Part shown: in pieces, positions 3,084 to 28,219 of the stretch
Numbering within the stretch: position 1 is the first letter of the stretch
How the letters are laid out: the number at the start of each line of letters is the position of its first letter
NCBI RefSeq assembly: GCF_034520025.1
Contig: NZ_JAXHNZ010000002.1
Location: forward strand, 1,722,460 to 1,786,459
Direction of reading: 5' to 3'
Origin: Rhodoferax sp.
GTDB taxonomy: Bacteria > Pseudomonadota > Gammaproteobacteria > Burkholderiales > Burkholderiaceae_C
DNA: 64,000 bases
Notes under the pieces: model-generated
The model's input: the letters and a program-made list of their open reading frames with translations, nothing else
What the model was told of the DNA's origin: nothing
The model's database searches: none
Made by a program: the position numbers and the translations under genes

Positions 3084-4781
3084 ATGCCTTTGACACCCCA
3101 CTGGATTCGCCACTACCCGAGGCAGCACCTGCGAGACGACTTGATAGCGGGTGTGTTGCTCACCGTTCTGGTCATTCCCCAGAGCTTGGCCTATGCCATG
3201 CTGGCTGGCCTACAGCCACAGGCCGGGCTGTATGCGAGCATATTGCCGGCCATCGCTTACGCTTGGTTCGGCAGTAGCATGGTGCAGGCGGTAGGGCCGG
3301 TAGCCATTACTGCCATCATGACGGCCAGTGTGCTGGGCCCCTTAGCACCCGTTGGAAGCGCGCTCTACCTTCAGCTGGCCGTGTGGCTAAGCCTGGGCTC
3401 TGGCGTGCTGATTACGTTGTGCGGGCTGGCTCGCTTGGGTTTTTTATCCCAACTGCTGAGCAAGCCTGTGGTCAGTGGGTTTATCACGGGCTCTGCACTG
3501 CTCATCATCTTGAGCCAGCTGCGATTCATCGGCGGCATAGATGCCCGCGGAAGTACAAGCTGGCAACTCCTGCACAGCCTTTGGGCTTGGCTGCCCGACA
3601 TCCATGCTCCAACCCTCCTGCTGGGAGTAGGCGCCGTTGTCGCCTTAGCCTTGGCGCGCACAGGTCTGAAGCGCTGGCCAATGTGGCAACGTTTGTTTCC
3701 ATTGTTGTTGATACTGGTCTGCCCTTGGGTAGTGCAAGGGCTGGCCCTGGACCCGGACCAGCGTATTGCGGTGGTGGGCCCTGTGTCGCTGGAGTGGGCA
3801 TCTTTCGACTTTTCGATGCCCCACCCGTCCGTCTTCAGTGCATTGGTTGGTCCGACGTTTCTGATCGCCTTTATCGGCATGGTGCAAGGTATCACCATGG
3901 CACAAGCATTGGCCACCCAACGGCGGGAGCGTATCGATGCCAACCGGGAACTGCTCGGGCTGGGGGCTGCGAATATCGCGGCCACCTTCAGTGGCGGTAT
4001 GCCGGTCGGGGGCGGCCTGAGCCGCTCGGCGATCAATGTGGCATCGGGTGCACAGACGCCCTTGGCGGGCATTGTCTCTGGCGTCAGCATGTTGGCAGTT
4101 TTGCTGCTCGGCACAGATTGGCTGAATCACGTTCCATTAGCGATTCTTGCGGCCAACATCATCATTGCGGCCTGGGGAATGATCGACCTCACCGCTTTGC
4201 GACAGGCATGGACTTATGACCGAGCGGATGCAATCGCTTGGCTGGGCGCCGCATCGGGGGTGCTGGCTCTAGGGATTGAAACCGGGATTGCCGTGGGTAT
4301 CGGCTTGTCACTGGCGACCCTTTTGTGGCGCACTAGCTCACCCCATATCGCTGTCATCGGCCGCTTGCCGGGCACACAATCGTTCCGGAACGTGAACCGG
4401 TACGCCACTGAAACACTGCCCCGGACACTGATGTTGCGGATCGACGAGAGTCTGTTTTTCGGCAATTTGCAAGCGGTGGAAGAACGCCTCGGACTGGAAC
4501 TCGCCCGGGCGCCAGACACCCAAGATGTGGTGTGGGTCATGACCGCGGTGAACCGGGTAGACACCTCTGCCATGGCGGCACTGCTCAACTTGAACCGGGA
4601 CCTCAAGGATCGCGGCATCCGCATGCATTTTGCGGAGGTGAAAGGCCCGGTACAAGACCGTTTGGTGCACACGCCCCTGTGGACTGAGCTCTCCGGTGAG
4701 TTCTTTCACTCGGTGCCCGATGCGTTCGCTGCCCTCCAAGCTTCGCGGCAGGAGCCACACGACGCCGCTTTGTCGATCTAA
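3084..4781 (+). CDS. SulP family anion transporter with STAS domain
   Basis: DDLIAG...IPQSLAYAMLAG..PQAGLY signature, many TM helices, C-terminal STAS (LRIDESLFFGN, VDTSAM). ORF from 3039; ATG 3084 preferred. Confidence 0.93.
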   Translation: MPLTPHWIRHYPRQHLRDDLIAGVLLTVLVIPQSLAYAMLAGLQPQAGLYASILPAIAYAWFGSSMVQAVGPVAITAIMTASVLGPLAPVGSALYLQLAVWLSLGSGVLITLCGLARLGFLSQLLSKPVVSGFITGSALLIILSQLRFIGGIDARGSTSWQLLHSLWAWLPDIHAPTLLLGVGAVVALALARTGLKRWPMWQRLFPLLLILVCPWVVQGLALDPDQRIAVVGPVSLEWASFDFSMPHPSVFSALVGPTFLIAFIGMVQGITMAQALATQRRERIDANRELLGLGAANIAATFSGGMPVGGGLSRSAINVASGAQTPLAGIVSGVSMLAVLLLGTDWLNHVPLAILAANIIIAAWGMIDLTALRQAWTYDRADAIAWLGAASGVLALGIETGIAVGIGLSLATLLWRTSSPHIAVIGRLPGTQSFRNVNRYATETLPRTLMLRIDESLFFGNLQAVEERLGLELARAPDTQDVVWVMTAVNRVDTSAMAALLNLNRDLKDRGIRMHFAEVKGPVQDRLVHTPLWTELSGEFFHSVPDAFAALQASRQEPHDAALSI

Positions 4782-4930: not shown

Positions 4931-5425
4931 ATGGCTAAAAATGTGGCACCCAAGATGCCGATCGACATCGGTATCAGCGAACGCGAGCGAAAGAAAATTG
5001 CCGAAGGCTTGTCAGGTCTTTTGGCAGACAGCTACACCCTGTACCTGATGACGCACAACTTTCACTGGAACGTGACAGGCCCCCAGTTCAATAGCTTGCA
5101 CACCATGTTCATGGCGCAGTACACCGAGCAGTGGACCGCTCTGGATCTGATTGCCGAGCGCATCCGCGCACTGGGTTTTCCAGCGCCGGGCACCTACAAA
5201 GAGTTCACCAAGCTTGCCAGTATCAAAGAGGTCGAGGGCGTGCCCAAAGCCAACGAGATGATTCACCACCTGCTGGCTGCACAAGAAGCTACTGCGCGCA
5301 CTGCCCGCAAGCTGTTCCCCGTGGTGGATGCCGCGAATGACCAGCCCACCGCAGATGTCTTGACCCAGCGTATTGACGTCCACGAAAAAACGGCCTGGAT
5401 GCTGCGCAGCCTCATCACCGAGTAA
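4931..5425 (+). CDS. dps: Dps family ferritin-like DNA protection protein
   Basis: THNFHWNVTGPQF, DLIAERIRALG, HEKTAWML ferroxidase motifs. Confidence 0.95.
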   Translation: MAKNVAPKMPIDIGISERERKKIAEGLSGLLADSYTLYLMTHNFHWNVTGPQFNSLHTMFMAQYTEQWTALDLIAERIRALGFPAPGTYKEFTKLASIKEVEGVPKANEMIHHLLAAQEATARTARKLFPVVDAANDQPTADVLTQRIDVHEKTAWMLRSLITE

Positions 5426-20322: not shown

Positions 20323-21024
20323 ATGGCCCATTTACTGATTGTTGAAGACGACGAATTGCTGCGCGACGGCCTGTGCGCGCAGCTGGTGCACGCCGGCCAC
20401 AGCGTGAGCAGCGCCAGCGACGGCGCACAAGCCCAAAACCTGCTGGAGTCCACCCGTTTTGACGGCGTGGTGCTCGACCTGGGCTTGCCTGTGGTGGACG
20501 GCATTACCGTGCTGATCTGGATACGCCAGCGCCTGGCTGCGCTGCCGGTACTCATCCTCACCGCGCGCGATGGCGTGGAAGACCGGGTGCAAGGCTTGAA
20601 CGCTGGCGCTGACGACTACCTCACCAAACCCTTTGAGATGGCCGAGCTGCTTGCCCGCTTGGAGGCCATGCTGCGCCGCTCGCGGCTGCCCGCCTTTGGC
20701 GGTTCGCTCGAAGTGCAGAGCAGCACCAGCAAAAACCTGCGCCTCGACCCGGTACTGCCCTTGGGCTGGCTGGGCGAAGAAGCGATGGAGCTCACCCACC
20801 GCGAGTGGTCCTTGCTCTCGCTGATGGTCAACAACATGGGGCAAGTCGTGAGCCGCGAAGACGTGCTGGCCGTTTGGCAAACCGCGCCGCAAGAAGGTGG
20901 TGCCGCCGGCTCCAATGCGCTGGAGGTGTACGTGCACCGCCTGCGCCGCAAACTCAACGACAGTGGCCTCAACATCCGCAACGTACGCGGCTTGGGCTAC
21001 ATGCTCGAATCGGACACCCCGTGA
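20323..21024 (+). CDS. OmpR-family response regulator (TctD/QseB-like)
   Basis: LLIVEDD, VVLDLGLP, LILTARD, GADDYLTKPF, winged helix NALEVYVHRLRRKL..RNVRGLGY. Confidence 0.95.
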   Translation: MAHLLIVEDDELLRDGLCAQLVHAGHSVSSASDGAQAQNLLESTRFDGVVLDLGLPVVDGITVLIWIRQRLAALPVLILTARDGVEDRVQGLNAGADDYLTKPFEMAELLARLEAMLRRSRLPAFGGSLEVQSSTSKNLRLDPVLPLGWLGEEAMELTHREWSLLSLMVNNMGQVVSREDVLAVWQTAPQEGGAAGSNALEVYVHRLRRKLNDSGLNIRNVRGLGYMLESDTP

Positions 21025-22397
21025 GCCGCCCTGCGCGCTTTTCGCTCAAGCGACAGCTCTTGATATGGCTGTTGCTGCCACAGTTGGTGCTGTGGCTGAT
21101 GGGGGGCGTGCTGGCATTCCGGGTCGCGCTGGCCTATGCCGAAAAGACCATTGACCAATCGCTCACGCAATCGGTGCGCTCGCTGTCGCGGCAGGTCAAG
21201 CCCATGGGCTCGGGCCTGTTGATCGACTTTCCCCGCGCAGCACGCGACATCATTGAGCAAGACCCGGACGACCGCGTGGCCTACATGGTGTCATCGCCGC
21301 CAGGCAGCTTTTTGCTCGGCAACACCAAAATTCCCGGGCGCACGCCCGACCTTTACTCCGCCGACAACGAACCCGTGCTGTACGAGGTGGTCATGGACGG
21401 CAAGCCCATGCGGGTCGCATCCATCGACTTGAGTTTTGGCGATGGCTTTACCGACCAGCGCATGCGGGTGCAGGTGGCCAAAAGCCTGGTCGCGCAGCAG
21501 CGTATAGCCCGCGAGCTGGTGCGCGATGTGCTCTTCCCGCTTCTGCTGCTGGGCGCCGTGTTGAGCGTGCTGGTGTACGAGGGCGTGCGCCGCGGGCTGG
21601 CGCCGCTGGAGCGGCTGGAAGCGCAGCTGGCCAACCGCAATATGGCGTCGCTCTCGCCCATCGAGATGACGCAAGCGCCCGAAGAAGTGCACTCGTTGGC
21701 TAACACCCTGAACCAACTGCTCACCACCCTGCGCCGCAGCCTGAGCCAGGAAAAGCGCTTTTTGAACGATGCCGCCCACCAACTGCGCACGCCGCTGGCC
21801 GGCCTCATCAGCCAGACCGAGCTGGCCATGCAAGAGACAGACCCCGACGCCCTGCAACAGCGCCTGACCAAAGTGCACACCGGCGCCCAGCGCAGCGCCC
21901 ACCTGGTGCACCAGCTGCTGTCATTGGCCCGCACCGAGGCGGAGGTGAGCCTGGTGCCGGTGGATGCCGCGTCACTCGCGCGCGAAGTGGCCCGCGAATG
22001 GACCCGCCGCGCGTTAGCAGCTGGCGTGGACCTGGGCTACGAAGGCGAAGACAGCGTGATGGTGCCCGCCGACAAACTACTGCTGCGCGAAGTGCTGAGC
22101 AACCTCATCGACAACGCCCTGCGCTACGCCGGCAAAGGCGCCGTAGTCACGCTGCGCACCACGGTGCGCGACGGCGTATGCTGGCTGGATGTGGAAGACA
22201 CCGGCCCCGGCCTCTCGACCGAGCATCTGGAGCGCGTGTTTGAACGCTTCTGGCGCGCCAGCGAACTGCCCGGCGGCTGCGGCCTGGGCTTGTCTATCGT
22301 GGCGGAAATTGCGCGGCGGCATAACGGAACGGCAACTGCGCAGACGACATTGCCGCATGGGTTGACGATTCGGTTGGAGTTGCCGTTGCAGGGGTGA
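21021..22397 (+). CDS. Sensor histidine kinase (TctE/QseC-like)
   Basis: GTG 21021 overlaps the regulator stop; two TMs, HAMP, AAHQLRTPL, SNLIDNALRY, DTGPG, GCGLGLSIV. Confidence 0.93.
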   Translation: MSRPARFSLKRQLLIWLLLPQLVLWLMGGVLAFRVALAYAEKTIDQSLTQSVRSLSRQVKPMGSGLLIDFPRAARDIIEQDPDDRVAYMVSSPPGSFLLGNTKIPGRTPDLYSADNEPVLYEVVMDGKPMRVASIDLSFGDGFTDQRMRVQVAKSLVAQQRIARELVRDVLFPLLLLGAVLSVLVYEGVRRGLAPLERLEAQLANRNMASLSPIEMTQAPEEVHSLANTLNQLLTTLRRSLSQEKRFLNDAAHQLRTPLAGLISQTELAMQETDPDALQQRLTKVHTGAQRSAHLVHQLLSLARTEAEVSLVPVDAASLAREVAREWTRRALAAGVDLGYEGEDSVMVPADKLLLREVLSNLIDNALRYAGKGAVVTLRTTVRDGVCWLDVEDTGPGLSTEHLERVFERFWRASELPGGCGLGLSIVAEIARRHNGTATAQTTLPHGLTIRLELPLQG

Positions 22398-22695
22398 TGG
22401 TTAGTGTGGTGCATCGACCGGCTCAACCCGCCTGCGGATACCAGCGAATTCACCCGAACAGGGGATATTCAGAAGGCAACATTCCCGTGAAAATCTAGCA
22501 ATTTGCAACCCATTTCATTTCTTGCAAGCTGCTGGGTTTGTCGGAGTTTTTAGACCTGTACAAACGGATACGAAAATTTCTGAGATCGAGTCTGCGAGAG
22601 GCTTTTCAGCGCGATCTACGCTCAGCTTATCCCGTAGTCGCCAGAGTATCCCGCAGGTTGTGCCTGCACACATTACATCGGACATCTATTCATAA

Positions 22696-23261
22696 ATGAA
22701 AATCTACGAAGCCAAAAATCGCATCACAAGGCAGCGAACTATCGCAGCGGTCCTTATGCTTGTCTCAATACTTTTTTTGCATTTGCCGCGCTAAAGAGCA
22801 TCTATTTTTCTATGGCTGGTGACACAACTGCCCTCTCTTCTCTGAGTCGCGGAGTTCAACGACTGGTCTACTTCATCTACGAGAGAACACAGTTTTTCTC
22901 ATATTTCTGGGAGTGGGCACCAGTTATCAATCCTAAGGAGCCCAACACTTCGGGAAACCTTGGGTTTCTTTTCGTAGTTGTATGCGGAGCAATTGGACGC
23001 ACCATGTGGGATAGCGCATTAAGTCTGTCGTGGCGAATCAAGAAGACCATACAAAAAGTCGAGGAACTTGGGTGGGAGCAGGAACTCATGGCGCAGCGAG
23101 GGCAAATCCCGGGGGCAAAACCCGACGTACTTCAAATCAACATTGAGCTTGAACAGAAGGAGCAGTGGTACAAGCGGCCGATAGGTCTTCTATTAGTTTG
23201 TGTAGCCATTGCCATACTCGGACAGTGGATGAATCTGCAATTCGGACTCGTCAAGCTGTGA
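22696..23261 (+). pseudogene. YniB-like membrane protein interrupted by a frameshift in a T7 run
   Basis: ATG 22696 frame stops at TAA 22792-22794; one extra T in the run 22772-22778 fuses it to ORF 22812-23261, giving 188 aa. Resembles E. coli YniB as recalled from memory. Confidence 0.6.
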
Positions 23262-23262
23262 T

Positions 23263-23320
23263 GCCCAACCTGTCAATACAACGGACCGCCTCCGGCGGCC
23301 GCTGAATTCAAACGTTTATT
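23263..23320 (+). mobile_element. Integron attC site (59-base element)
   Basis: R'' GCCCAAC, 5-nt spacer CTGTC, L'' AATACAAC, stem GG(A)CCGCC-TCC-GGCGG-CC, L' GCTGAAT, 6-nt spacer TCAAAC, R' GTT. 58 bp, starting 1 bp after the upstream stop. Confidence 0.85.
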
Positions 23321-23332
23321 GCCAAATTCATC

Positions 23333-23989
23333 ATGTCGCATGAGTCCAACGGGTATGTAAGACTGATGCCGAAACGGGACTGGGCACGTGCACCCGCCCG
23401 GCAGCATCAGTTTCGGGTTCTGGAGCCATGGTGGCAACCGTACGAACTGATAGTCACGCGTTCGAGGCAACTCCGTAAGATCGAACCAAGTGCCTACTGC
23501 GAACTTCTTTGTGAAGGGGAGCGGAGACATCTCCTTATCCCACTAGCCTTGGAGCCGATCCTGGCTGATGCCGTTATTGGCCTTGGCAAGCTGTTACTTA
23601 CGGGCGGGCGAGAAGAGCGATTTATGACCTTGTTTAAGGTCTACGAGGCGCTCCAGCCAAATCCCGAGATGAAGTTCGCTGCAGTCCGCCACGCATTGGC
23701 GCACGCCACAGTCGTTCTGGATAGGCCAAAGACAGTTTCAGCACTTCTGGATCTCTTTGGCACGACGAGAATTGATCTATCAACCTACACGCATCAACGA
23801 ATTTTCTGGCAGGTGTTGGGCAGTCTTTTAACCACTGTTGACACCCTCCTTGCCTCAAGAATTGAAATGTCGGCTCTACAGTTCACGATGTCTGATGAGA
23901 TTGCACAGCCGCTCACCGTCAGTGTTGCCAGCTACTACTTCCGAACGGAGCTCAGTGAGTTGCGGTCTAACCAGCCTAGAGCAATGTGA
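23333..23989 (+). CDS. Hypothetical cassette-like protein with a possible HEPN motif
   Basis: 218-aa ORF starting 12 bp after attC; LFKVYEAL...VRHALAH (Rx4H); lower GC than flanks. Confidence 0.6.
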   Translation: MSHESNGYVRLMPKRDWARAPARQHQFRVLEPWWQPYELIVTRSRQLRKIEPSAYCELLCEGERRHLLIPLALEPILADAVIGLGKLLLTGGREERFMTLFKVYEALQPNPEMKFAAVRHALAHATVVLDRPKTVSALLDLFGTTRIDLSTYTHQRIFWQVLGSLLTTVDTLLASRIEMSALQFTMSDEIAQPLTVSVASYYFRTELSELRSNQPRAM

Positions 23990-24014
23990 AAGTCAGCTTA
24001 CAGCCTTGGATCAA

Positions 24015-24047
24015 CCGGGCTGCCCCATAAGGGCAGCCCGGCTTTTT
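24015..24047 (+). terminator. Intrinsic terminator between convergent genes
   Basis: CCGGGCTGCCC-CATAA-GGGCAGCCCGG perfect 11-bp stem, followed by CTTTTT on +. Confidence 0.8.
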
Positions 24048-24065
24048 CATTAAGGTCTTGAAAAA

Positions 24066-25142
24066 TTAAACGTCCAAACGCACACCCGTCGCAGTGCTGA
24101 ACCAGTTGGTGTTCGCAGGGTTCACGCGCAGGCCGACTTGGTCGCCGGCTTTCCAAGATGCGCTTGGGGCGGTGCGCACGGTCACTTCACCAGAGGCTGT
24201 TTTCACGACCACATAGGTGTCAGCGCCAGTGGGTTCCACTACCGCCACTTCGCCGCGCCAAGCAGCGTCACCAGCGATCAACTCGATGTGCTCGGGGCGC
24301 ACGCCCAGGGTGGCGTCGCCAGCGGCTGGGGTTGCCAGCTCCAGGGTGCTGCCGTTGAAAGTAAAGCGGCCTTGCGCGCCGGGCACTTCCACATGGCCCT
24401 TGATCAGGTTCATGGTGGGCGAGCCGATGAAGGTGGCCACATAGGTGTTAGCCGGGCGGTTGTAGATGTCGTCGGGTGTGCCGATTTGTTGCAGGATGCC
24501 GTCCTTCATGACAGCGATGCGGCTGCCCAAGGTCATGGCTTCGATCTGGTCGTGTGTCACGTACACGCTGGTGATGCCAGACACTTGATGCAGGCGCTTG
24601 ATTTCGGCGCGCATTTCCACGCGGAGCTTGGCGTCCAAGTTGGAGAGTGGCTCGTCAAACAAGAACAGCTGAGGGTCGCGTGCCAAGGCACGGCCCATGG
24701 CCACACGCTGGCGCTGACCGCCAGACAACTGCGCAGGGCGGCGGTCTAACAAGTGCTCGATCTGCAACATAGCGGCCACTTCGGCAATGCGCTTTTTACG
24801 CTCTTCCACGGGCACCTTGCGCATTTCCAAGGCGAAGCCGATGTTGTCGGCCACGCTCATGGTGGGGTACAGGGCGTAGCTCTGGAACACCATGGCAATG
24901 TCGCGCTGTGCGGGGGCTACGCCCACCACGTTTTTGCCGGCAATGCGCAGCTCACCTTCGGATGGCTCTTCGAGACCGGCAATGATGTTGAGCAAGGTGG
25001 ACTTGCCGCAACCCGAGGGGCCAACCAGGATCAAGAATTCGCCGGGGGCGACGTCGATTTCGATCTTTTTCAAGACTTCAACGGCTTTGTCGCCTTTGCC
25101 GAAAACTTTGCGAATGCCTGCGATTTGGAGAGAAGCTGCCAT
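24066..25142 (-). CDS. Sugar ABC transporter ATP-binding protein (MalK/UgpC-like)
   Basis: GPSGCGKST, AMVFQSYALYP, LSGGQRQRVAMGR, LFDEPLSNLDAKLR, TOBE domain. Confidence 0.96.
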   Translation of the reverse strand: MAASLQIAGIRKVFGKGDKAVEVLKKIEIDVAPGEFLILVGPSGCGKSTLLNIIAGLEEPSEGELRIAGKNVVGVAPAQRDIAMVFQSYALYPTMSVADNIGFALEMRKVPVEERKKRIAEVAAMLQIEHLLDRRPAQLSGGQRQRVAMGRALARDPQLFLFDEPLSNLDAKLRVEMRAEIKRLHQVSGITSVYVTHDQIEAMTLGSRIAVMKDGILQQIGTPDDIYNRPANTYVATFIGSPTMNLIKGHVEVPGAQGRFTFNGSTLELATPAAGDATLGVRPEHIELIAGDAAWRGEVAVVEPTGADTYVVVKTASGEVTVRTAPSASWKAGDQVGLRVNPANTNWFSTATGVRLDV

Positions 25143-25145
25143 TTT

Positions 25146-26000
25146 TTATCCTTTCACCGCGCCAGCGGTGAGACCTTTCACGAAGTATTGACCTGCCAGT
25201 ACGTAGACCAACATGGTGGGGAGACCTGCAATCACGGCCGCAGCCATGTCGACGTTGTAGCTTTTAACACTGCTGGAGGTGTTGGCCATGTTGTTCAGGC
25301 CGACAGTGATGGGCTTGCTGTCTGCGCCGCTGAAGGCCACGCCGAACAGGAAGTCGTTCCAGATGTTGGTGAATTGCCAGATGAGGGTCACCATCAAAAT
25401 CGGGGTGGACATGGGCACCACAATGCGGAAGAAAATGCGCCAGAAACCGGCACCGTCAATGCGCGCAGCGTTCACCAACTCTTTGGGGATGGCGGTGTAG
25501 TAGTTGCGGAAGAACAGCGTAGTACCGGCCAAACCTGCAATGCAGTGCACCAAAATCAAGCCACCCAGCGAGCTGGACAGGCCCAGAAAACCGAGCACCT
25601 GGCTCATGGGCAACAACACGACCTGGAAAGGCATGAACACGCCAAACAGCATGAAGCCAAACAGCACTTCGCTGCCTTTGAACTTCCACATGCTTAGTAC
25701 GTAGCCGTTGATAGCGCCCCACGCGGTGGAGATCAGCACCGCGGGCACCGCCATGATGATGGAGTTGGTAAAGAAGGGTTGCAAACCGCGGCAGTCCACA
25801 CCGGTGCAGGCGGTGGACCAGGCGGCAGACCAGGCCTCAAAGTTGAGCGAGGTGGGCAGGCTCAGCAAGTTGCCGGAGCGGATTTGCTCGGCGTCCTTGA
25901 ACGAGGTGGCCAACATCACGTACAGCGGCGCCAAAAAGAAGAAGGCGGCCAGCAGCAGCGTGGCGTAGATCAGGATGCGGGGTAGGTTTTTGGTCAGCAT
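25146..26000 (-). CDS. Carbohydrate ABC transporter permease (GtsC-like)
   Basis: TM helices; EAA loop IPKELVNAARIDGAG; QFTNIWNDFLFG. Confidence 0.95.
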   Translation of the reverse strand: MLTKNLPRILIYATLLLAAFFFLAPLYVMLATSFKDAEQIRSGNLLSLPTSLNFEAWSAAWSTACTGVDCRGLQPFFTNSIIMAVPAVLISTAWGAINGYVLSMWKFKGSEVLFGFMLFGVFMPFQVVLLPMSQVLGFLGLSSSLGGLILVHCIAGLAGTTLFFRNYYTAIPKELVNAARIDGAGFWRIFFRIVVPMSTPILMVTLIWQFTNIWNDFLFGVAFSGADSKPITVGLNNMANTSSSVKSYNVDMAAAVIAGLPTMLVYVLAGQYFVKGLTAGAVKG

Positions 26001-26006
26001 AAGGTG

Positions 26007-26060
26007 CGATCGTGGGGGACGGTCGTAAGTAACGGTCGTGGGTTAACGGTCGTGGGGTTT
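26007..26060. repeat. Four degenerate 13-14 bp tandem units across the permease junction
   Basis: CGATCGTGGGGGA / CGGTCGTAAGTAA / CGGTCGTGGGTTAA / CGGTCGTGGGGTTT. Confidence 0.75.
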
Positions 26061-26921
26061 GGTGCGCAATTCGCTGTACAGGTAGGGCACCACCAAGGCG
26101 GCCACGAACACCAGCATCATGGTGGCGCTGGCTGCGCCCAGGCCGATCTGGCCGCGGGTGAAGCTCATCACGTACATAAAGGTGGCAGGCACGTCAGACG
26201 CGTAGCCGGGGCCGCCCGAGGTGAGCGCCATGACCAAGTCAAAGCTCTTGATCGACAAGTGCGACAACACCAACACGGTGGAGAACACTACTGGGCGCAG
26301 GATGGGCAGAATAATGCGCCAGTAAATGCGGGGCAACGAGGCGCCGTCAATCTGGGCCGCTTTGATGATGCTGTCGTCAATGCCGCGCAGGCCAGCCAAC
26401 GACAAAGCCATGGCAAAACCGGCGGACTGCCAGATACCGGCAATCACCACGCAGTAAATGGCGGTTTCAGACTGAACCAGCCAGTCGAAGCTGAAGCTGG
26501 TCCAGCCAAAGTCGTGCATCAATTTTTCGAGGCCAAGACTGGGATTCAAGATCCACTTCCATGCGGTGCCGGTCACGATGAATGACAGAGCCATGGGGTA
26601 GAGGTAAATGGTGCGCAGCACGCCTTCGGCGCGAATTTTCTGGTCCAAGAAAATCGCCAAGCCCATGCCGAGAGCCATGGAGCCGCCCACATATAAAACG
26701 CTGAAAATGCCAAGGTTTTTCAAGGCGACATACCAGCGGTCCATTTCCCAGAGGCGCACATATTGCTCCAAGCCCACGAACTCGTCGTAGTTGGGCAGCA
26801 TGCGCGAGCCGGTGACCGACAGGATGCCGTTCCAGATCATGAATCCGTAAATGAAGGCGAAGCCGAGCACAAAGCCCGGGGCGATCACCAGCTTGGGGAG
26901 GATGTTTTCGATGGTTTTCAT
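26043..26921 (-). CDS. Carbohydrate ABC transporter permease (GtsB-like)
   Basis: FVGLEQY, RTIYLYPMALS, LAGLRGIDDSIIKAAQIDGA. Confidence 0.95.
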   Translation of the reverse strand: MKTIENILPKLVIAPGFVLGFAFIYGFMIWNGILSVTGSRMLPNYDEFVGLEQYVRLWEMDRWYVALKNLGIFSVLYVGGSMALGMGLAIFLDQKIRAEGVLRTIYLYPMALSFIVTGTAWKWILNPSLGLEKLMHDFGWTSFSFDWLVQSETAIYCVVIAGIWQSAGFAMALSLAGLRGIDDSIIKAAQIDGASLPRIYWRIILPILRPVVFSTVLVLSHLSIKSFDLVMALTSGGPGYASDVPATFMYVMSFTRGQIGLGAASATMMLVFVAALVVPYLYSELRTKPHDR

Positions 26922-26926
26922 AAGTC

Positions 26927-28189
26927 TTACTTTTGCTTTGGCGCGCTAACTGCGACCAATTTGGCGACGGCTTCGCTCACGCTCAGCTTGTCGTTGTTCC
27001 AGAACTCGCTTACTGCAGCGCGCATTGCAGCTTGCTGCGACGACGGCAATGCCATGCCATGTGCCACCGACGGAACCAGTGAGCCCGCAGCGGAGGTGGC
27101 GACAAAGTCTTTGCTGGAGGTTTTGGCGCAGTCGTCAAACTTGTCCATGTTCATACCCAAGCGGACCGGAATGGAGCCCTTGCGCAGATTGAACTTCTCC
27201 TGAAACTCTTTGCCCATCAACAAATAGGCCAGATAGCCCTGGGCCTTTTGGGCCTCCCAGCCTTTGAGCTGGAACATGGCAAAAGAGTCAACGTTAAAGG
27301 TATAGGCGTTGGCAGTGCCAGGGGCTGCTGAGCAGGTGAACTCTTTGCCCGGCGTTTGGCCTGCAGCCAGGAACTCGCCTTTGGCCCAATCGCCCATGAA
27401 TTGGAAACCGGCTTTGCCGTTGATCACCAGTTCGGTGGTGATATTCCAGTCGCGGCCGCTGGAGGCGGGGTCGGTATAGCTCTTGAGGCGGCGGAAAGTC
27501 TCTAGCGCCTTTTTCATGTCATCGCTGTTGATAGCAGCGCGGTCAAGTTTGACCAGTGCCTTGTCGTAAAGGCTTGCACCGCCCACACCCAGCACCACGG
27601 ACTCAAACACCGTGAAGTCTTGCCAGTCTTGGCCACCGTGGGCCAGGGGGATCAGGCCGGCGGCCTTGATTTTGTCAGCGGCAGCAAAAAACTCGTCATA
27701 GGTTTTGGGCAACGCGGCAACGCCTGCTTTTTTGAGCACGGCGGAGTTGGCCCACAACCAGTTCACCCGGTGCACATTGACAGGGACGGCCACATAGCGG
27801 CCTTTGTGTTTCATTTGGTCAGCAACGACCTTGGGGAGCGTTTCGTCCCACTTCTCGAAAGACGCCATTGCGTCGAGGTTGGTCAGTACACCCAACTCAG
27901 CCCACTCCTGAATGGCAGGGCCCTTGATATTGGCGGCTGCAGGGGCATTACCAGCCAGCACCCGCTGCTTGAGTACGGCCATGGCGTTCTGGCCACCACC
28001 ACCGGTCACGGTGAAGTCGCGCCAAGTGTGCCCACGTTTTCCCATCATGTCTTTGAGCTCAACCACCGACTTGGCTTCGCCGCCAGAGGTCCAATAGTGC
28101 AGCACCTCGACCTCTCCCGCGAACACGCTTGCGCCTGCGCATAAAGCACATGCAGCGGCAAACCGGCGCGCGAAAGCTGTAAAAGCCAT
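26927..28189 (-). CDS. Sugar ABC substrate-binding protein, second paralogue (GtsA-like)
   Basis: EVEVLHYWTSGGE, PVNVHRVNWLW, FMGDWAKGEF, NLRKGSIPVR. Confidence 0.93.
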   Translation of the reverse strand: MAFTAFARRFAAACALCAGASVFAGEVEVLHYWTSGGEAKSVVELKDMMGKRGHTWRDFTVTGGGGQNAMAVLKQRVLAGNAPAAANIKGPAIQEWAELGVLTNLDAMASFEKWDETLPKVVADQMKHKGRYVAVPVNVHRVNWLWANSAVLKKAGVAALPKTYDEFFAAADKIKAAGLIPLAHGGQDWQDFTVFESVVLGVGGASLYDKALVKLDRAAINSDDMKKALETFRRLKSYTDPASSGRDWNITTELVINGKAGFQFMGDWAKGEFLAAGQTPGKEFTCSAAPGTANAYTFNVDSFAMFQLKGWEAQKAQGYLAYLLMGKEFQEKFNLRKGSIPVRLGMNMDKFDDCAKTSSKDFVATSAAGSLVPSVAHGMALPSSQQAAMRAAVSEFWNNDKLSVSEAVAKLVAVSAPKQK

Positions 28190-28219
28190 GGGAATAGACC
28201 TGAAGAACACGGGATTTAA

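What the first reader, a model, noticed from the sequence alone, without database searches (positions are those of the whole stretch)
22657..23989. Integron gene-cassette remnant with a canonical attC but no integrase
Seen: a 58-bp site at 23263-23320 has the full attC layout (GCCCAAC, 5 nt, AATACAAC, GC stem with a bulged A, GCTGAAT, TCAAAC, GTT). GTTGTGC at 22657-22663, 32 bp before the first ATG, is one mismatch from the complement of GCCCAAC, as expected for the 5' end of the same cassette. A second ORF starts 12 bp after attC and ends over GTCTAAC-CAGCC (23965-23976), which looks like a truncated second attC. The patch is visibly lower in GC. Knowledge: attC sites without intI (CALIN/SALIN) can be excised by an integrase in trans. 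Inference: a two-cassette array was captured between the two-component genes and the sugar ABC operon.
Basis: partly seen in the sequence, partly recalled or inferred. Interest (0 to 1): 0.7.

Follow-up and report, generated by a model that had tools for sequence, protein, structure and literature searches.

The report
Decayed integron cassette array, no integrase
The low-GC patch is a worn-out two-cassette integron array with no integrase gene nearby, an already familiar kind of element, but it hangs on a conserved docking sequence that also heads other integrase-less arrays in related bacteria.

Summary
Two attC covariance models, built only from attC sites outside this window, each give one hit in the whole 64-kb window, at 23263-23320 (25 bits, E 0.0017; 32 bits, E 3e-5).

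Both ORFs are cassette genes elsewhere. The yniB-like gene is a bounded cassette in locus L037. The orphan 218-aa gene is a single cassette in L001, L003, L004 and L005, always starting GTTAGAC with an attC starting GTCTAAC.

The second attC is truncated by a deletion. No IntI-like gene occurs in the window.

Corrections:
- The 5' cassette boundary is ATCGGAC at 22677-22683, not GTTGTGC at 22657.
- It is the decayed crossover point of a conserved ~280-bp attI-like leader (22398-22676).
- The yniB-like gene is frameshifted.

The host is a Rhodoferax. Relatives carry other arrays, or unrelated inserts, in the same kinase/ABC gap.

The same leader heads integrase-less arrays at other chromosomal sites. 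In 10 of 13 arrays its junction exactly complements the first attC.

Verdict: a fossil SALIN/CALIN, a new member of a known kind. The leader family is the more interesting lead.

The parts
20323..22397 (+). Left flank: response regulator (20323-21024) and histidine kinase (about 21060-22397). These are core genes of the genus.
   Evidence: Pfam Response_reg/Trans_reg_C and 2CSK_N/HisKA/HATPase_c. The kinase is 96-97% identical at the protein level in the closest Rhodoferax genomes, loci L008-L015; the pair aligns at 88-91% nucleotide identity there and at 74-84% in loci L016-L025.
22398..22676 (+). attI-like leader: a conserved non-coding element that heads cassette arrays. It is a degenerate copy here.
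   Evidence: nhmmer with a profile of 7 leaders: window 22413-22689, E 4e-76 (the window copy is one of the 7 used to build the profile). The profile also hits L012 (twice), L013, L019, L020, L037 and 12 metagenome loci. See the alignments.
22677..22683 (+). Decayed attI/cassette junction, ATCGGAC. The expected sequence is G|TTGGGC, the complement of R'' GCCCAAC.
   Evidence: It aligns with GTTAGAC, GTTAGGC, GTTAAAT and similar junctions of the other leaders. Spacing to the ATG is 12 nt, as in the L037 yniB cassette (GTTGGGC + 12 nt + ATG). 3 of the 4 variable nucleotides match the expectation.
22696..23261 (+). Cassette 1 gene: yniB-like (PF14002) inner-membrane protein. It is frameshifted at the T7 run 22772-22778, so it is a pseudogene or an N-terminally truncated product from ATG 22812.
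   Evidence: Pfam YniB, E 1.4e-10. 61 homologues, most 187-188 aa long. A 1-nt gap relative to L002. The run X1 contig, at depth 125, agrees with T7.
23263..23320 (+). attC of cassette 1: R'' GCCCAAC, L'' AATACAAC, GC stem with bulged A, L' GCTGAAT, R' GTTTATT. The crossover lies between G23314 and T23315.
   Evidence: The only hit of models R1 and R2 in the window. The bottom-strand DNA fold pairs AAC/GTT and the L boxes, -11.1 kcal/mol, z -2.2. It is homologous to the attC of the L037 yniB cassette, which also starts 1 nt after the stop codon.
23333..23989 (+). Cassette 2 gene: orphan 218-aa protein with no known family or fold, under purifying selection.
   Evidence: No Pfam, NCBIfam or PADLOC match, and only a weak PHROGs hit of unknown function (phrog_32331, E 0.0096). 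Only 8 homologues among 5.8 billion proteins. dN/dS is 0.28 against L002 and 0.12 against L001. The AlphaFold2 model has pLDDT 87.7 but no PDB or BFVD match.
23965..23987 (+). Truncated attC of cassette 2. Only R'' GTCTAAC, the spacer CAGCC and part of L'' remain.
   Evidence: Full attCs starting GTCTAAC follow the homologous gene in L001, L003 and L005. From 23988 the window is homologous to the right flank that follows the last attC in L020. Neither covariance model hits here.
23988..24041 (+). Right flank of the array (23988-24012) and the conserved intrinsic terminator hairpin (24015-24041).
   Evidence: The flank is homologous to L020 and L012. The terminator was found by scan. Homology with the other Rhodoferax genomes resumes at about 24013.
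24066..28210 (-). Right flank: convergent sugar-type ABC operon, with a MalK-like ATPase, two permeases and a solute-binding protein.
   Evidence: Pfam ABC_tran + TOBE_2 + OB_MalK, BPD_transp_1 twice, and SBP_bac_1.

Best explanation
Window 22398-24013 is a fossil integron cassette array without its integrase, in a Rhodoferax chromosome.

Anatomy. A ~280-bp attI-like leader sits directly after the histidine-kinase stop codon. Two cassettes follow in the same orientation:
1. A yniB-like membrane-protein gene with a recognisable attC.
2. An orphan 218-aa gene whose attC has lost everything after its L'' box.

How it was built (inferred). An integron integrase joined circular cassettes, through their folded attC, to the GTT at the end of the leader. 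This is attI x attC recombination. That integrase is encoded elsewhere in the genome or has been lost.

Present state (shown from sequence).
- The left junction has lost GTT (now ATC).
- The R' of attC1 is GTTTATT.
- attC2 is truncated.
- yniB is frameshifted.

Neither cassette can therefore be excised by standard attI x attC or attC x attC recombination. At most, attC1 could still receive a cassette from an integrase supplied in trans.

ORF2 is still kept by selection. It is presumably transcribed by read-through from the kinase operon or from the leader, ending at the hairpin 24015-24041. That transcription route is inferred.
For: attC1:
- It is the single hit in the window of two attC models trained only on outside sites.
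- Its scores fall in the range of genuine attCs that were not used for training. With R1, the blaIMP-1 attC scores 20 bits and the L037 attCs 21-27 bits.

Cassette 2:
- Its homologues are single cassettes in L001, L003, L004 and L005.
- Each starts GTTAGAC; in L001, L003 and L005 the cassette's own attC starts with the complementary GTCTAAC inside the 3' end of the ORF, while in L004 that R'' reads GTCTATC.
- L003 also begins with the 3' end of an ORF whose last 21 residues are 71% identical to the IntI1 C-terminus.

Cassette 1:
- Its homologue in L037 is bounded by GTTGGGC on the left and by GCCCAAC...GTTATGC on the right, with the same spacings as in the window.

Leader:
- It is conserved in 7 Rhodoferax-type copies and 13 other loci.
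- It always ends ...TACATTAC|GTTRRRY.
- attCs follow on the same strand in all 12 leader-bearing loci tested: 11 metagenome loci and L037.
- In 10 of 13 arrays the variable 4 nt are the exact complement of the first attC's R'' (3.7 of 4, against 2.0 of 4 in cross-pairs).

Other:
- The attC2 truncation is shown by homology of 23988-24012 to the post-array flank of L020 and L012.
- No IntI-like ORF is present in the window or in any locus flank.
- L002, a relative at dS 0.17, has the same two cassettes, the same decayed junction and the same truncation, so the array was already frozen before the two lineages split.
Against: - Only one attC passes a covariance model, so by the formal definitions this is a single site.
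- The L box of attC1 is imperfect. It has two non-canonical pairs, and an A/T where the usual extrahelical C/G sits.
- The R' of attC1 is GTTTATT, not GTTRRRY.
- The orthologous site in L002 scores poorly: 11.5 bits with R1 and 23.6 bits with R2.
- The leader's role as attI rests on comparative evidence only. No integrase that uses it has been identified, and no promoter was found in it by a simple scan.
- Only 64 kb of this genome could be searched for intI.
- E-values from the shortened calibration are rough.
Confidence: 0.85

Rival explanations
1. Secondary-site (attG-type) capture. A two-cassette circle was inserted by an integrase in trans at an arbitrary GTT in the kinase-ABC spacer, and GTTGTGC at 22657 is the left junction.
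For: Integrase-mediated insertion of cassettes outside att sites is documented and produces SALINs and small CALINs (bioRxiv 10.1101/2022.09.11.507474). GTTGTGC is one mismatch from the complement of GCCCAAC.
Against: - The motif is at chance frequency: 364 observed against 334 expected.
- It lies inside the conserved leader, which other genomes carry with different cassettes.
- The homologous cassette in L037 places the boundary 12 nt before the ATG, which is 22677 in the window.
Confidence: 0.05
2. The array is not a fossil. It is one of several attI platforms still served by an integrase encoded elsewhere in the same genome, so attC1 remains an active insertion point.
For: - Related genomes at the same locus carry quite different cassettes behind the same leader (L012, L013, L019, L020).
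- Junction complementarity is perfect in most arrays, which argues for recent integrase activity in the lineage.
- attC1 keeps AAC/GTT, both L boxes and a bulged stem.
Against: - In the window and in L002 the junction GTT is lost.
- The terminal hairpin of the leader has diverged from the consensus.
- attC2 is truncated.
- The content has not changed since the window and L002 lineages split at dS 0.17.
- No integrase has been seen.
Confidence: 0.1
3. The site is an ordinary intergenic hairpin or terminator between two genes of a generic low-GC islet, and its likeness to attC is coincidental.
For: The locus is a general insertion hotspot. About ten relatives carry unrelated low-GC inserts there with no detectable attC. 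The hairpin was flagged as weakly terminator-like on the minus strand.
Against: - It is the only covariance-model hit in 128 kb of searched sequence, with two models.
- Both genes occur separately as attC-bounded cassettes in six other loci.
- The core sites are complementary as cassette circularisation predicts.
Confidence: 0.02

Closest known systems
SALIN / CALIN (single attC, or clusters of attC sites, lacking an integron-integrase; IntegronFinder categories, PMC4889954 and PMC9024848; SALIN in bioRxiv 10.1101/2022.09.11.507474)
   Same: Cassette ORFs with attC, all on one strand, and no intI within many kilobases. No intI pseudogene is nearby, as for 95% of CALINs. The cassettes are orphan genes.
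   Different: Only one attC is detectable here, and the second is truncated. The array begins at a conserved attI-like leader, which the CALIN/SALIN definitions do not include. Most CALINs are not known to have one, because attI sequences are unknown for most integrons.
Sedentary chromosomal integrons at a fixed locus (for example Vibrio superintegrons, or Xanthomonas integrons next to ilvD)
   Same: A fixed chromosomal position across a genus. Cassette content is strain-specific and made up mostly of orphan genes. The attI-cassette junction complements the first attC.
   Different: Those integrons have intI, or a recognisable intI pseudogene, directly upstream of attI. Here the kinase stop codon abuts the leader, and no IntI-like sequence is found.
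Class 1 integron cassettes with short aadA-type attC (59-be), such as aadA2 and aac(6')-Ib
   Same: The same layout and length: 7-nt R'', 5-nt spacer, 8-nt L'', GC-rich bulged stem, L', 5-6-nt spacer, GTT. The window site aligns end to end with a model trained partly on these.
   Different: There is no resistance gene. The L box is imperfect, the extrahelical C/G is replaced, and R' is not GTTRRRY.
attG / secondary-site cassette insertions (Loot et al., bioRxiv 10.1101/2022.09.11.507474)
   Same: Cassettes in a chromosome far from any integrase, which may be expressed from a neighbouring promoter.
   Different: The insertion point is not arbitrary genomic DNA. It is the end of a conserved element found at the head of many arrays.

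Membership tests
attC recombination site | Scores above noise with a covariance model of attC sequence plus structure. | tested here: met
   R1 (8 outside sites): 25 bits, E 0.0017. R2 (32 outside sites): 32.2 bits, E 2.9e-5. It is the only hit in the window with either model. IntegronFinder's own model was not available.
attC recombination site | R'' RYYYAAC and R' GTTRRRY as inverted core sites. | tested here: inconclusive
   R'' GCCCAAC fits. R' is GTTTATT: the GTT is kept, but RRRY reads TATT. In L002 it is GTTAAAT. The RRRY part derives from the next cassette, which elsewhere starts TTAGAC, so it has mutated here.
attC recombination site | L''/L' pairing with an extrahelical base, an unpaired central spacer, and a bulged variable stem on the bottom strand. 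| tested here: inconclusive
   The bottom-strand fold gives AAC/GTT, an internal loop, an L helix containing a T.T mismatch and a G.T pair, and a bulged T in the GC stem. The model alignment marks 2 non-canonical L-box pairs, and an A where the C is usual.
attC recombination site | Recombined by an integron integrase. | not testable with these tools
   This needs a suicide-conjugation or excision assay.
Integron gene cassette | The 5' end TTRRRY complements the R'' of the cassette's own attC, which is the mark left by circularisation. | tested here: met
   Cassette 2 family: GTTAGAC and GTCTAAC in L001, L003 and L005; L004 also starts GTTAGAC but its R'' reads GTCTATC. Cassette 1 family: GTTGGGC and GCCCAAC in L037. 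In the window itself both 5' ends are decayed (ATCGGAC, GTTTATT).
Complete integron | An integron-integrase gene (intI) adjacent to the array. | tested here: not met
   tblastn with IntI1 against the window and all loci. There was nothing credible at E<=10 in the window. The only real hit is the 21-residue C-terminal match at the start of L003. There were none in 21 metagenome loci.
Complete integron | An attI site at the head of the array. | tested here: inconclusive
   A conserved leader ends at GTT, and its junction complements the first attC in 10 of 13 arrays. This is the expected footprint of attI x attC recombination, but integrase binding was not tested. The window copy has ATC in place of GTT.
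Complete integron | A Pc promoter driving the cassettes. | tested here: inconclusive
   No sigma-70-like site was found in 22300-24150 by the consensus scan. No RNA data exist for this metagenome-derived sequence.
CALIN | At least two detectable attC sites with no intI nearby. | tested here: not met
   One detectable attC plus one truncated remnant. Relatives L012 (5 sites), L019 (3) and L020 (2) at the same locus do qualify.
SALIN | A single attC associated with a CDS, with no intI or other att site nearby. | tested here: met
   The caveat is that a decayed attI-like leader is present.

The most novel reading that the evidence does not exclude
The leader defines a previously undescribed kind of integron platform. 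It is a portable, integrase-less attI 'docking station', consisting of the leader plus a conserved right flank.

What supports this:
- It is found at several unrelated chromosomal sites in Comamonadaceae and other Burkholderiales, and twice in tandem in L012.
- Cassettes are loaded by attI x attC recombination, as shown by exact junction complementarity in 10 of 13 arrays.
- No integrase lies within 1.6-22 kb on the leader side in at least nine different contexts.

If this reading is right, one integrase would serve multiple dispersed attI sites in trans, and many 'CALINs' of this clade would be working arrays rather than debris.
Probability: 0.35. Interest if true: 0.65.

Novelty: new member of a known kind. 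Interest (0 to 1): 0.4.

Why it matters
On its own, the window feature is one more decayed SALIN/CALIN. Thousands are known. It matters mainly as a clean worked example: both cassettes can be traced to intact copies in other arrays, and each step of decay can be named.

The wider value lies in the leader. The attI sequence is unknown for most integrons, and CALINs are usually treated as orphaned debris. Here there is a conserved attI-like element that:
- heads integrase-less arrays at many loci,
- carries fresh-looking recombination junctions,
- and occupies a fixed hotspot in Rhodoferax with strain-specific cassettes.

This offers a direct way to ask whether integrases routinely service remote attI sites in trans. 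It would also help to find arrays that attC-only searches fragment or miss.

One possible consequence, not checked here, concerns chromosomal genes reported as 'non-mobile' in these genera, such as environmental dfrB (PMC11662351). They may sit in arrays of this kind.

Tried and rejected
- Rfam over 22200-24200 gave only a sub-threshold RT-2 hit (20.5 bits against a gathering score of 40). It was rejected.
- PADLOC and NCBIfam gave nothing for either ORF, and PHROGs only a weak hit of unknown function for ORF2 (phrog_32331, E 0.0096).
- I suspected a HEPN Rx4H motif in ORF2 (R119...H124). The confident AlphaFold2 model has no PDB or BFVD match at all, so I do not claim it.
- I tried to read the 3' end of ORF2 plus the terminator hairpin as a complete long attC2. 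This was rejected because 23988-24012 is homologous to the post-array flank in L020 and L012, and neither model hits there.
- I tried to fold the leader, or the right flank plus leader, as an unusual long attC. There is no L-box complementarity, so this was rejected by inspection.
- I looked for terminal inverted repeats of the whole platform. They are significant in L064 (55 nt) and L058 (26 nt), but their sequences differ, and they are absent in L062, L012, L020 and the window. This remains unexplained.
- A fixed-register trim of 16 attCs failed for half of them because spacer lengths differ. MAFFT on all 14 misaligned the 3' arms. Model R1 was therefore built from the 8 sites that are in register.
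- The tyrosine recombinase at L037 9378-10439 is not an IntI (24% identity over 80 aa to IntI1).
- I considered that the yniB frameshift might be a homopolymer sequencing artefact. Run X1 (depth 125) supports T7. Run X2, from the same sample, shows T6 along with other homopolymer deletions. Neither count restores the frame.
Full report
**What is at the coordinates**

The site at 23263-23320 reads GCCCAAC CTGTC AATACAAC GGACCGCC-TCC-GGCGGCCG CTGAATT CAAAC GTTTATT. Folded as single-stranded DNA, the bottom strand pairs AAC with GTT, leaves an internal loop, pairs the two L boxes imperfectly, and closes with a GC stem carrying one bulged base (-11.1 kcal/mol, z = -2.2).

GC content falls from 0.62-0.70 in the flanks to 0.46-0.55 between 22400 and 24000.

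- A response regulator and a histidine kinase on the + strand, ending at 22397.
- A convergent ABC operon on the - strand: a MalK-type ATPase ending at 24066, two permeases and a solute-binding protein.

**Is the attC more than chance?**

Rfam has no attC family, so I built covariance models from sites outside this window.
- Model R1 used eight attCs. Four came from class 1 integron cassettes on plasmids (dfrA12, gcuF, aadA2, aac(6')-Ib). Four came from metagenomic arrays.
- With filters off and both strands of the 64-kb window searched at E<=10, R1 returned one hit: 23263-23320 on the + strand, 25 bits, E 0.0017.
- Model R2 was rebuilt from 32 attCs found in other loci, none from the window or its orthologue L002. 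It again returned that single hit: 32.2 bits, E 2.9e-5.
- Genuine attCs not used in training score in the same range with R1: the blaIMP-1 attC scores 20 bits and the L037 attCs 21-27 bits.
- The calibration was shortened, so these E-values are rough. The uniqueness of the hit and its exact coordinates are the stronger argument.

**The two ORFs are cassette genes elsewhere**

ORF2 (23333-23989, 218 aa):
- It has no Pfam, NCBIfam or PADLOC match, only a weak PHROGs hit of unknown function (E 0.0096), and only eight homologues among 5.8 billion proteins.
- In four independent metagenome contigs (L001, L003, L004, L005) the homologue is a single cassette. It starts GTTAGAC; in L001, L003 and L005 its own attC begins inside the 3' end of the ORF with the exact complement GTCTAAC (GTCTATC in L004), and the attCs end GTTGGGC, GTTAGGC or GTTAGCC.
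- L003 begins with the 3' end of an ORF whose last 21 residues are 71% identical to the IntI1 C-terminus (E 0.004).

ORF1:
- It is a YniB-family (PF14002) membrane protein.
- Most of its 61 homologues are 187-188 aa long.
- In L037 an 84%-identical copy is a bounded cassette. The preceding attC ends GTTGGGC, and 12 nt later comes ATG AAA ATC. Its own attC starts one base after the stop codon with GCCCAAC. The window has the same arrangement.

The pair is therefore two cassettes that occur separately elsewhere, not an operon.

1. The window's yniB frame is broken. The ATG at 22696 opens a frame that stops at 22794, and the rest of the protein is in another frame from 22812.
   - The cause is a T7 run (22772-22778) where L002 has T8.
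   - An independent assembly of run X1 (depth 125) agrees with T7. The second run from the same sample shows T6, together with other homopolymer deletions.

2. GTTGTGC at 22657 is not the cassette's 5' end.
   - Such near-matches occur at chance frequency: 364 observed against 334 expected.
   - This one lies inside a conserved element.
   - Alignment with other arrays and with the L037 cassette places the boundary at 22677-22683. The window has ATCGGAC there and L002 has ATTGGAT, where GTTGGGC is expected.

   - After GTCTAAC CAGCC TAGAGC..., the sequence from 23988 (GAAAGTCAGCTTACAGCC...) is homologous to the flank that follows the last complete attC in L020 and L012.

**Host and locus**

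A genome scan with the kinase places the window in Rhodoferax, Comamonadaceae (the kinase is 96-97% identical at the protein level in L008-L015). The sequence itself is held by two salt-pan metagenome runs.

The gap between the kinase and the ABC ATPase gene is hypervariable:
- It is about 8 bp in the distant relatives L023 and L025.
- It is 300 to more than 3300 bp of different low-GC DNA in about twenty closer genomes.
- Only L002 shares the window's two cassettes.
- L012, L019, L020 and L013 carry other cassettes, with attCs on the same strand.
- About ten genomes carry inserts with no detectable attC.
- L014 has an IS3-like transposase.

**The leader**

In the window, L002, L012, L013, L019 and L020, the first ~220-280 bp after the kinase stop codon is a conserved non-coding element. 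In L014 and L017 only the first ~90-105 bp is. Where the full element is present, it ends ...TTATACCGCAG-N3-TTTGCGG-N2-TACATTAC|GTTRRRY.

A profile of this element also hits L037, just upstream of that array. A metagenome scan with its terminal motif then found 13 further copies, representing 11 distinct sequences, in other gene neighbourhoods.

- In all 12 leader-bearing loci tested (11 metagenome loci and L037), attCs follow the leader on the same strand.
- In 10 of 13 arrays the four variable bases after GTT are the exact complement of the R'' of the first attC. The mean is 3.7 of 4, against 2.0 of 4 for mismatched pairs. This is the footprint of attI x attC recombination, so the leader behaves as an attI.
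- No IntI1-like ORF was found in any flank. The available sequence on the leader side ranges from 1.6 kb to 22 kb.
- After the last attC a short right flank is also conserved: GTTAACG ACTGCTT... in Rhodoferax, and GTTGAAC GTCTGCTYTT... elsewhere.
- L012 holds two leader copies in tandem.

**State and mechanism**

Inferred: an integron integrase loaded the two cassettes at the leader's GTT.

Shown: every site needed to move them is now damaged. The junction GTT reads ATC, the leader's terminal hairpin has diverged, the R' of attC1 is GTTTATT, and attC2 is cut.

L002 has the same cassettes and the same lesions at dS 0.17, so the array has been frozen since before the two lineages split.

ORF2 is nevertheless under purifying selection. 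Its dN/dS is 0.28 and 0.12, against 0.05 for the kinase. Its predicted structure is confident (pLDDT 87.7, pTM 0.84) but has no match in PDB or BFVD. Residues R119, H120, H124, RPKTV and LFGTT are invariant. Its function remains unknown.

Transcription by read-through, or from the leader, to the hairpin at 24015-24041 is inferred. No sigma-70 consensus was found, and no RNA data exist.

**Comparison with what is known**

This is a SALIN by IntegronFinder's definitions, or the remnant of a two-cassette CALIN. Both categories are abundant:
- 3400 SALINs and 2961 CALINs were counted in 21,105 genomes.
- 95% of CALINs are not near an intI pseudogene.

The finding is therefore a new member of a known kind.

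What I did not find described, in the papers read or in my own knowledge, is a conserved attI-like leader heading integrase-less arrays at many loci. That is offered as a lead, not a conclusion. The integrase was not found, only parts of genomes could be searched, and no binding or recombination was tested.

Noticed in passing
window 22398-22683; L012 5339-5613 and 7768-8043; L013, L019, L020 from about 5300; L037 4135-4331; L045-L064: A conserved 130-280-bp non-coding leader, ending TACATTAC|GTTRRRY, heads cassette arrays in many different gene neighbourhoods. None has an IntI-like gene in its flanks. The junction complements the first attC in 10 of 13 arrays.
   Followed up: partly
L012 7041-8070: Inside one Rhodoferax array, the right-flank sequence is followed directly by a second full leader copy and another cassette, as if the whole platform were duplicated in tandem. 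A shorter flank-plus-leader-like unit sits at L012 7041-7170 and at L020 6183-6314.
   Followed up: partly
L064 about 3620-3675 and 5070-5125; L058 (reverse strand), about 240-270 nt upstream of the leader junction and about 95-120 nt after the last attC: Long inverted repeats (55 nt and 26 nt; 0 of 300 shuffles reach the score) bracket the entire leader + array + right flank. The repeat sequences differ between the two loci. No such repeats were found in L062, L012, L020 or the window. Their meaning is unknown.
   Followed up: partly
window 22397-24013 versus L008-L031: The kinase-ABC spacer is a general insertion hotspot in Rhodoferax. About ten genomes carry unrelated low-GC inserts with no detectable attC. 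L014 has an IS3-like transposase after the first ~100 bp of the leader. L024-L031 share a different 2.5-kb insert.
   Followed up: partly
window 23333-23989: ORF2 family: a confident AlphaFold2 model (an N-terminal beta-sheet plus a helical bundle) with no PDB or BFVD match. It has the invariant motifs A-x-RH-x-L-x-H, RPKTV and LFGTT-x-(I/V)-DL.
   Followed up: partly
window 22772-22778: A homopolymer frameshift (T7) inactivates the yniB-like gene. Of the two runs from the same sample, one agrees (T7) and the other shows T6, together with several other single-base homopolymer deletions in the region (23111, 23117, 24008, 24043, 24061).
   Followed up: yes
L003 1-420: A metagenomic integron in which an IntI-like C-terminal end lies on the same strand as the cassettes. 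The attI region contains repeated GTAACCAT motifs. Its third cassette is the ORF2 homologue.
   Followed up: no
L037 3860-3945 and 9378-10439: A tRNA-like 3' fragment lies just upstream of the leader. A non-IntI tyrosine recombinase lies 4 kb beyond the array, so that array may sit in a tRNA-associated island.
   Followed up: no
literature, PMC11662351: Environmental dfrB10 and dfrB19 are reported as chromosomal and 'non-mobile' in Rhodoferax, Polaromonas and Variovorax. Because dfrB genes are classic cassettes, they might lie in integrase-less arrays of the kind seen here.
   Followed up: no
window 22759-22885 (- strand): A sub-threshold Rfam hit to RT-2 RNA (20.5 bits against a gathering score of 40, E 0.039), inside the yniB-like gene. 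I treated it as chance.
   Followed up: no
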